Assembly: GCA_038889235.1 (NCBI GenBank)
Contig: JAWAHN010000002.1
Span: 44,356 to 76,355, forward strand
Length of the DNA: 32,000 nt
Direction: 5' to 3'
Source of the DNA: Candidatus Jordarchaeales archaeon
GTDB taxonomy: Archaea; Asgardarchaeota; Jordiarchaeia; Jordiarchaeales; Freyrarchaeaceae
Shown: positions 13,149 to 14,246 of the stretch, in pieces
Layout: every line of letters begins with the position of its first letter
Position numbering within the stretch: the stretch's first letter is position 1
The notes under the pieces: generated by a model
Database searches by the model: none
What the model was told of the DNA's origin: nothing
Seen by the model: the letters and a program-made list of their open reading frames with translations, nothing else
Translations under genes and position numbers: made by a program

Positions 13149-13754
13149 TTGAAAAAACTCAAACGTGGACTATTAATAGTATTCGAAGGGATAGACGGTG
13201 CCGGAAAAACCACTCACGCCAAACTACTCGCAGAGTGGTTGAGCGAAAAAGGATACGAAGTGCATCTGACGAAGGAACCAACAAACGGAGAAATAGGGGC
13301 AATGCTTCGCAGACAACTAGCGGAAAAGGTTTTCCACCCAGCTACGTTGGCCCTCCTCTTTGCGGCGGATAGGGTTGAACACACTGAGAAGGAGATAAAA
13401 CCAATGATTGAGGCAGGGAAAATCGTGGTTTCAGACCGCTACCTGGAATCGTCCATCTGCTACCAGGCAGCATCAGGTTTAAGCGTGGAATGGATTGAGA
13501 ACATAAACAGGTGGGCGCTAAAAGCGGACTTAACGATTCTACTGGATATTGACGTTCAAACAGCTATAAGCCGTCTGGGAAATAAGTCAAGGGACAAGTT
13601 TGAAGAGGAAGAATTCCTTGTGAAGGTTAGAGAAATATACCTTAAAAGAGCTAAACGCAAGGGTTACCATGTGATTGACGCCACCCCTCCAATAGGAGAG
13701 GTGCAAGCAAAGATAAGGAAAACTGTGGGTTCGTTCATCGAGCGCATCAAATGA
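13149..13754 (+). CDS. tmk: Thymidylate kinase
   Basis: FEGIDGAGKTT, LFAADR and SDRYLES motifs. Confidence 0.96.
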   Translation: MKKLKRGLLIVFEGIDGAGKTTHAKLLAEWLSEKGYEVHLTKEPTNGEIGAMLRRQLAEKVFHPATLALLFAADRVEHTEKEIKPMIEAGKIVVSDRYLESSICYQAASGLSVEWIENINRWALKADLTILLDIDVQTAISRLGNKSRDKFEEEEFLVKVREIYLKRAKRKGYHVIDATPPIGEVQAKIRKTVGSFIERIK

Positions 13755-13790
13755 AAAGGTTTATTTCTGAGGATGATACATCAAGTGTTT

Positions 13791-13846
13791 GGCGATGAAG
13801 AATTATGTACTCCTGACTAGATGAAGAACGACAGGCGGCCTGAGCC
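13791..13846 (+). ncRNA. Box C/D guide sRNA
   Basis: GGC-g-ATGAAGA(C)-attatgtactc-CTGA(D')-ctag-ATGAAGA(C')-acgacaggcggc-CTGA(D)-GCC. Terminal GGC/GCC stem with 3-nt K-turn bulge; 11- and 12-nt guides. Confidence 0.85.
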
Positions 13847-13871: not shown

Positions 13872-14246
13872 TTACTCTTCTTCTAACAATCTTTTGACCT
13901 CTTCAGATACGCGCTTCAAAGTCATTAGTATGAGCCCTAAGTTGGCATTGTTCCTCGCGAGAACAGTTAGCAGCGCGCTCTCCCCCGCACCCTTTATTAT
14001 TACGTACCCGTTCTCCCCCTGCAACAAGACTTGCTGCAGTCTCCCCCTAACAAGCTCAGCACTAACCTTTTCTGAAACGCTAAGTATAGCTGACGCCATA
14101 GCGGCAACAACTGCCTCATCTATCTCCTGAGGCATAGCTGATACTATTGGAAGCCCCTCAGTACTTACTATCGCGCTAGCTTCTATTCCAGGGGTGGTAG
14201 CCTCCATGTTCCTGAGCAACTCTAAAAGTTCCTCAATTTTGGTCAC
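13872..14246 (-). CDS. Roadblock/LC7 domain protein
   Basis: IEASAIVSTEGLPI, AAMASAILS, ELVRGRLQQVLLQGENG, NLGLI pattern. Confidence 0.92.
   Translation of the reverse strand: MTKIEELLELLRNMEATTPGIEASAIVSTEGLPIVSAMPQEIDEAVVAAMASAILSVSEKVSAELVRGRLQQVLLQGENGYVIIKGAGESALLTVLARNNANLGLILMTLKRVSEEVKRLLEEE

What the first reader, a model, noticed from the sequence alone, without database searches (positions are those of the whole stretch)
13791..13846. Textbook box C/D guide sRNA hidden between tmk and the roadblock gene
It has C and C' boxes (both AUGAAGA), D and D' boxes (CUGA), 11- and 12-nt guides and a K-turn-compatible terminal stem, and is likely co-transcribed with tmk. Predicted targets are 5'-GAGUACAUAAU-3' (A methylated) and 5'-GCCGCCUGUCGU-3' (C at position 5). 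The second resembles a tRNA-Asp(GUC) anticodon arm, but the N+5 site would then be position 31, which is atypical, so the target is unresolved.
Basis: partly seen in the sequence, partly recalled or inferred. Interest (0 to 1): 0.62.

Follow-up and report, generated by a model that had tools for sequence, protein, structure and literature searches.

The report
Asgard guide RNA for 16S C1402
This is a real small guide-RNA gene of an Asgard archaeon that most likely directs ribose methylation of C1402 in the ribosome's decoding centre, not of a tRNA; it is an ordinary new member of a known class, and other archaea and eukaryotes have guides for the same base.

Summary
Window 13791-13846 (+) is a complete C-D'-C'-D sRNA. 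It is the only strict match in this 2.1-Mb Jordarchaeum-genus Asgard genome, against 0 in 20 simulated genomes. Homologues were found in 38 of 151 Asgard genomes, nearly all those read beside the same roadblock/tmk block. The D guide is conserved and the D' guide drifts freely. Across eight families the D guide converges on the start of 16S helix 44, and the N+5 rule gives own C1369 = E. coli C1402, the P-site Cm made by RsmI in bacteria and by snR70 in yeast. This genome's copy is the family's weakest: 9 pairs with an A·C mismatch opposite C1404, and an 8-bp pairing at 16S C882 ties it. Co-transcription with tmk is unlikely: a TATA-like box sits at fixed distance in 17 of 20 homologues, and tmk is divergent in two families. 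Fibrillarin, Nop5 and L7Ae are present; RsmI was not found. An archaeal guide for this site is already published (Ignicoccus sR11). This scan has also noted the same family in other genomes. Verdict: new member of a known kind, low-to-moderate interest.

The parts
13753..13767 (+). Predicted own promoter: purine-rich BRE-like stretch (13753-59, overlapping the tmk stop) and TATA-like box (13760-67); predicted start near G13791
   Evidence: A YTTAW motif starts 33-38 nt before box C in 17 of 20 homologues; genome background is about 0.027 per 5-nt window. Inferred, not mapped.
13791..13846 (+). Box C/D sRNA gene, about 56 nt, with 3-bp terminal stem (13791-93 with 13844-46)
13794..13801 (+). 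Box C (variant AUGAAGA after G)
   Evidence: Invariant in families f1 and f2
13802..13812 (+). D' guide: not conserved, probably an empty (orphan) guide or spacer
   Evidence: Differs in every f1 genome; best rRNA score reached by 71 of 100 shuffles
13813..13827 (+). Box D' (13813-16), 4-nt spacer and box C' (13821-27): internal K-loop motif
13828..13839 (+). D guide, complementary to 16S E. coli 1398-1408. G13835 (N+5) pairs with C1402 (own C1369, G000:C2:21627); A13833 (-7) faces C1404 as a mismatch
13840..13843 (+). Box D (CUGA)
13149..13754 (+). tmk, thymidylate kinase (upstream neighbour; context only)
   Evidence: PF02223, E 1.3e-53
13872..14246 (-). Roadblock/LC7 gene (convergent downstream neighbour; the most constant syntenic partner)
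   Evidence: PF03259, E 7.9e-18; synteny

Best explanation
A self-promoted, single-guide archaeal box C/D sRNA. L7Ae binds the C/D K-turn and the C'/D' K-loop and recruits Nop5-fibrillarin (established pathway, not shown here). The 3' (D) guide pairs with the pre-16S strand at the start of helix 44 (E. coli 1399-1408), and fibrillarin 2'-O-methylates the base paired to the fifth nucleotide before box D: C1402 (own C1369), which lies by the P-site codon. The D' guide is an unselected spacer. Shown: architecture, conservation, synteny, complementarity, presence of the three protein genes. Inferred: transcription, RNP assembly, and methylation despite the mismatch at guide position -7.
For: (1) The D guide is conserved and the D' guide is not. 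(2) Of 16 Asgard D-guide variants scored against all of G000's 16S and 23S, C1369 ranks first for 10 and second for 3, including G000. It ranks fourth for the bulged f2 guide, and two f12 forms are shifted by 1-2 nt on the same strand. Summed score is 262 against 205 for the next site. (3) Distant families carry 9-10 perfectly paired nucleotides to this strand. The CGA at guide positions -9 to -11, present in all homologues read, is explained only by 1406-1408. (4) The same-genus guide (G001-G003) makes 11 of 12 Watson-Crick pairs; 7 of 300 shuffles reach this. (5) Fibrillarin, Nop5 and L7Ae genes are present and RsmI was not found. No other C/D-like element with this complement stood out in the genome. 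(6) The site is Cm in P. abyssi (Cm1376), yeast (Cm1639) and human (Cm1703) (PMC7005279). (7) In an engineered hemi-complex, mismatches away from positions 3-5 did not reduce activity (PMC1635284).
Against: G000's own guide is the weakest of the family. It makes 9 Watson-Crick pairs with mismatches at -1, -7 and -12 (-17.0 kcal/mol). That is no better than shuffles (254 of 300) and is tied by 16S C845 and 23S C22. Kin are not independent, and the homologue model was built partly on this guide, so distant hits lean towards similar guides; synteny supports them independently. The mismatch-tolerance data come from an artificial hemi-complex with a very stable duplex. There are no expression or methylation data for this organism.
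Confidence: 0.8

Rival explanations
1. In this family (and in f8) the A at guide position -7 retargets the guide to, or adds, 16S C845 (E. coli about C882, just before helix 27), as main or second site.
For: 8 contiguous Watson-Crick pairs in G000 (-17.9 against -17.0 kcal/mol for helix 44) and 7 pairs plus a G·U in G003, G004 and G016. The site is invariant there, and the -7 A is shared by all five f1 genomes and G016. G000's D' guide also pairs 6-7 nt just downstream, at A855.
Against: Only 7-8 bp, below the usual 9-10. It does not explain the conserved CGA at -9 to -11. Scores are lower than for C1369 in every homologue except G000 and f2, where they tie. The D' pairing is not shared by any relative. 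G000's C at -1 does not covary with the 16S, since all f1 16S have G there.
Confidence: 0.12
2. The RNA binds the helix-44 strand as a folding chaperone, or is a decaying guide, and methylates C1402 poorly or not at all, like Pyrobaculum sR25.
For: Many Asgard homologues keep an imperfection in this duplex (A·C at -7 in f1 and f8, a 2-nt bulge in f2, mismatches at -2 or -3 in f3, f4, f17, f20). Pyrobaculum sR25 has a conserved N+5 mismatch at 16S C1368 (PMC6009581). I. hospitalis C1402 was under 50% methylated (PMC5389701).
Against: N+5 is a Watson-Crick G-C pair in G000 and in nearly all homologues; boxes are intact; no stand-alone RsmI was found to take over.
Confidence: 0.06
3. The D guide targets a tRNA, 23S C22, or an mRNA with a perfect complement.
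For: 23S nt 18-28 of G000 gives the top score, 17. Exact 10-11-mers occur elsewhere in the genome.
Against: The tRNA-Asp arm does not match. The 23S pairing is broken in G004 (mismatch at -4) and G016, which carry essentially the same guide. Exact 10-mers are no more frequent than the reversed control, are not in tRNAs, and only one pair is homologous between genomes. Spliced forms of all tRNAs were not reconstructed.
Confidence: 0.02

Closest known systems
Ignicoccus hospitalis sR11 (sequence in Dennis et al. 2015, PMC4644070; proposed Cm1402 guide in Seistrup et al., PMC5389701)
   Same: Archaeal C/D sRNA whose guide pairs the same 16S strand with N+5 on C1402 (score 19, rank 1 on G000 rRNA).
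   Different: There the C1402 guide is the 5' guide of the RNA, with a G·U at -8; here it is the 3' (D) guide with an A·C mismatch at -7. Homology was not shown.
Sulfolobus acidocaldarius sR122 and Methanopyrus kandleri sR114 (PMC4644070, supplementary file 1)
   Same: Their 5' guides pair the same site with N+5 on C1402 by my scoring (21 and 20); sR122 also has C at -1.
   Different: 5' guide rather than 3' guide. The paper lists Sac sR122 as 'no prediction', so the C1402 assignment is my inference and not the paper's.
Pyrobaculum sR25 / Thermoproteus tenax sR135 (PMC6009581; PMC4644070)
   Same: Guide directed at the same position (alignment C1389, i.e. E. coli 1402 by that paper's offset); in T. 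tenax sR135 it is the 3' guide, as here.
   Different: They have a mismatch at N+5 and a second targeted guide (C1349); this RNA has a Watson-Crick pair at N+5 and an empty second guide.
Yeast snR70 (Cm1639); human Cm1703 guide (SNORD43/U43, name from my own knowledge)
   Same: Same ribosomal position and same RNA-guided mechanism (PMC2794176; PMC7005279).
   Different: Eukaryotic snoRNAs. No Rfam match to these families from this RNA or five distant homologues. Similar guides are expected by convergence because the target is nearly invariant.
Bacterial RsmI (PMC2831307)
   Same: Makes the same 2'-O-methyl on C1402.
   Different: Protein-only enzyme acting on 30S subunits; not found in this genome (TIGR00096; 95% complete).

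Membership tests
Archaeal box C/D sRNA | C, D', C', D boxes in order within about 50-70 nt | tested here: met
   56 nt; both C-type boxes are the AUGAAGA variant.
Archaeal box C/D sRNA | Terminal stem juxtaposing C and D (K-turn compatible) | tested here: met
   3-bp stem, invariant in f1 and f2 and extended in some other families. K-turn folding itself was not tested.
Archaeal box C/D sRNA | 10-12 nt guide complementary to rRNA or tRNA with a Watson-Crick pair at N+5 | tested here: met
   Met at family level. G000's own duplex has 9 pairs and one internal mismatch and is not significant alone.
Archaeal box C/D sRNA | Host encodes L7Ae, Nop5 and fibrillarin | tested here: met
   all above the curated cut-offs
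Archaeal box C/D sRNA | RNA is expressed, binds L7Ae and guides methylation | not testable with these tools
   Needs RNA-seq, RIP and RiboMeth-seq
Double-guide C/D sRNA | Both guides have conserved targets within about 100 nt | tested here: not met
   D' guide unconserved, with no match above shuffles
Rfam sR1 (RF01152), best hit | Reaches the gathering score and shares the guides | tested here: not met
   31.3 bits against a cut-off of 45; the match is mostly boxes and stem
snR70/SNORD43 orthologue | Sequence homology beyond the target-dictated guide | tested here: inconclusive
   No Rfam hit to these families. Such short RNAs carry too little signal to exclude common descent.

The most novel reading that the evidence does not exclude
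An anciently inherited Asgard C1402 guide, kept beside the roadblock gene across several classes, that is the direct ancestor-side counterpart of eukaryotic snR70/SNORD43. Alternatively, in Jordarchaeum one guide has become bifunctional through the A at -7, methylating both C1402 and about C882, or accommodating a base-modified C1404.
Probability: 0.12. Interest if true: 0.6.

Novelty: new member of a known kind. Interest (0 to 1): 0.3.

Why it matters
C1402 methylation tunes start-codon choice and reading-frame fidelity in E. coli (PMC2831307) and yeast (PMC2794176). Archaeal guides for it are thinly documented: none was found in N. equitans, and one was proposed in I. hospitalis (PMC5389701). 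My literature searches returned no catalogue of Asgard C/D sRNAs, so a syntenic, multi-family Asgard guide with a testable target is a useful data point. It suggests that RNA-guided Cm1402 was present in the archaeal lineage closest to eukaryotes. It changes no mechanism.

Tried and rejected
tRNA-Asp target: rejected after finding the intron-split gene and splicing the anticodon arm by hand. ARAGORN and Rfam had missed this gene. Other pre-tRNA loci: best scores 16, each with a mismatch; not every spliced tRNA was rebuilt. 23S C22: top score in G000 but not conserved in G004 or G016. Perfect-complement mRNA sites: at chance level and not homologous. D' guide targets: two exact 11-mers lie in long open frames, about one is expected by chance, and the guide is unconserved. 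Double guide on C845 plus A855: seen only in G000. Rfam family membership: none. The sigma-70 promoter scan was uninformative. Plain minimum-free-energy folding does not recover the K-turn form, as expected for protein-stabilised G·A pairs. Shuffle tests on G000's guide alone were not significant. No homologue was found in the sampled genomes of families f5, f7, f9 and others (strict filters), which does not show absence.

Full report
Observation. They sit between tmk (PF02223) and a convergent roadblock gene (PF03259). The strict pattern occurs once in the genome and never in 20 simulated genomes. Rfam has no family at gathering level; the 13 weak hits are all C/D families on these coordinates.

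Host. A same-genus genome (G002) corresponds to a record titled Candidatus Jordarchaeum sp. LHC_1308, so the host is an Asgard archaeon of the Jordarchaeum genus. It is 95% complete. It encodes fibrillarin and Nop5 side by side, and L7Ae; TIGR00096 (RsmI) was not found.

Conservation. The RNA lies just 3' of tmk in all four same-family genomes and in five of six genomes of the sister family. Boxes, stem and the D guide are conserved; the D' guide differs in each f1 genome. A sequence model found homologues in 38 of 151 genomes of the phylum, across 11 families. Of the 30 loci fetched, nearly all share the roadblock, tmk, map or PAC2 neighbours. Synteny therefore supports orthology independently of guide similarity.

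Target. The genome's 16S (C2:20259-21755) carries the universal strand at the start of helix 44 at nt 1365-1376. The fifth guide base before box D, G13835, pairs with own C1369. The pattern of C at 1400, 1402, 1404 and 1407 in Table 4 of PMC7005279 fits this strand in only one register, which makes C1369 = E. coli C1402. G000's duplex has 9 Watson-Crick pairs (guide -2 to -11) with an A·C mismatch at -7 opposite C1404. Taken alone this is not significant. The case rests on the family. C1369 ranks first for 10 and second for 3 of 16 Asgard guide variants, and has the highest summed score (262 against 205). Distant families pair perfectly over 9-10 nt, and the sister family pairs 8 plus 3 around a 2-nt bulge. 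Different substitutions in different families converge on one site, and the guide's CGA matches 1406-1408.

Rivals. 16S C845 (E. coli about 882, numbering from my own knowledge) gives 8 contiguous pairs in G000 and 7 plus a wobble in relatives that share the -7 A. It cannot be excluded as a second site, but it does not explain the conserved 5' part of the guide. 23S C22 scores highest in G000 but is broken in G004 and G016. The tRNA-Asp gene (C1:741358-741516) is split by apparently four introns; its hand-spliced anticodon arm shares only the loop bases with the proposed target. Exact complements elsewhere are at chance level. The D' guide has no match above shuffles and is best read as empty; 28% of Pyrobaculum guides are orphans (PMC6009581).

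Transcription. A TATA-like box preceded by a purine-rich stretch starts 35 nt before box C. The same motif lies at -33 to -38 in 17 of 20 homologues (background about 0.03 per 5-nt window; related genomes are not independent). It stays at that distance where about 100 nt are inserted after the tmk stop (G007, G009, G010). In families f3 and f20 tmk is transcribed away from the sRNA, and in several other loci it is not present. An own promoter is therefore more likely than co-transcription; most archaeal C/D sRNAs are independently transcribed (PMC6009581). This is inferred, not mapped.

Mechanism. By the established archaeal pathway (PMC7994747), L7Ae binds both kink motifs, Nop5-fibrillarin assemble, the D guide pairs with nascent 16S, and C1402 is 2'-O-methylated. 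A mismatch at position 7 was tolerated in an engineered hemi-complex (PMC1635284), which is only indirect support. C1404 carries a base modification in P. abyssi and H. volcanii; a link to the mismatch is speculation.

Comparison with what is known. The position is m4Cm1402 in E. coli (RsmI and RsmH), Cm1376 in P. abyssi, Cm1639 in yeast (snR70) and Cm1703 in human. I. hospitalis sR11 was proposed as its guide. S. acidocaldarius sR122 and M. kandleri sR114 pair the same site by my scoring, although Dennis et al. list sR122 as unpredicted. Pyrobaculum sR25 covers it with an N+5 mismatch. The Asgard RNA differs from sR11, sR122 and sR114 in using the 3' guide and leaving the other guide empty. 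It meets every testable criterion of an archaeal C/D sRNA and belongs to no curated Rfam family. Orthology with snR70/SNORD43 is neither shown nor excluded.

Earlier scan notes. I had reached the C1402 reading (note) before consulting them. They report the same family in other genomes and gave the leads to sR11, sR122 and sR114, which I checked in the papers. They are not independent support.

Verdict. A real, conserved, probably self-promoted single-guide C/D sRNA for 16S Cm1402 (confidence 0.8). New member of a known kind; interest 0.3.

Noticed in passing
L065:1501-1563 (G006) and other family f2 homologues: Their 9-nt D' guide pairs 8 nt with 16S helix 31 (N+5 on about E. coli A964, two bases from the modified 966), which would make the f2 RNA a double guide on two P-site elements. 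However, 25 of 100 shuffles score as well.
   Followed up: partly
L073, L074, L076, L083, L087, L089, L090 (family f12): One or two extra bases at or before box D (CCAGA or CUAGA in place of CUGA). A strict N+5 reading shifts to G1401 or C1400, or the box carries a bulged base. Unexplained.
   Followed up: no
L075:1501-1560 (G016, family f8): Shares the A at guide position -7 with family f1, has a degenerate D' box, and the roadblock gene is in the same orientation rather than convergent.
   Followed up: partly
G000:C1:741358-741516 (+), also C1:666083 and C1:760886: tRNA-Asp apparently split by four short introns (D arm, 32/33, 37/38, about 53/54), missed by ARAGORN and Rfam. Two neighbouring tRNA-Glu-like genes look similarly multi-intron.
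   Followed up: partly
G000:C2:379382 (-) and G000:C6:3722 (+): Two further well-formed C/D sRNA candidates from a relaxed pattern; they appear to match earlier notes of this scan.
   Followed up: no
G000:C2:20259-21755 and G000:C1:894187-897271: 16S and 23S genes are on different contigs, both far from contig ends, so they are unlinked; in G006 they lie about 30 kb apart.
   Followed up: no
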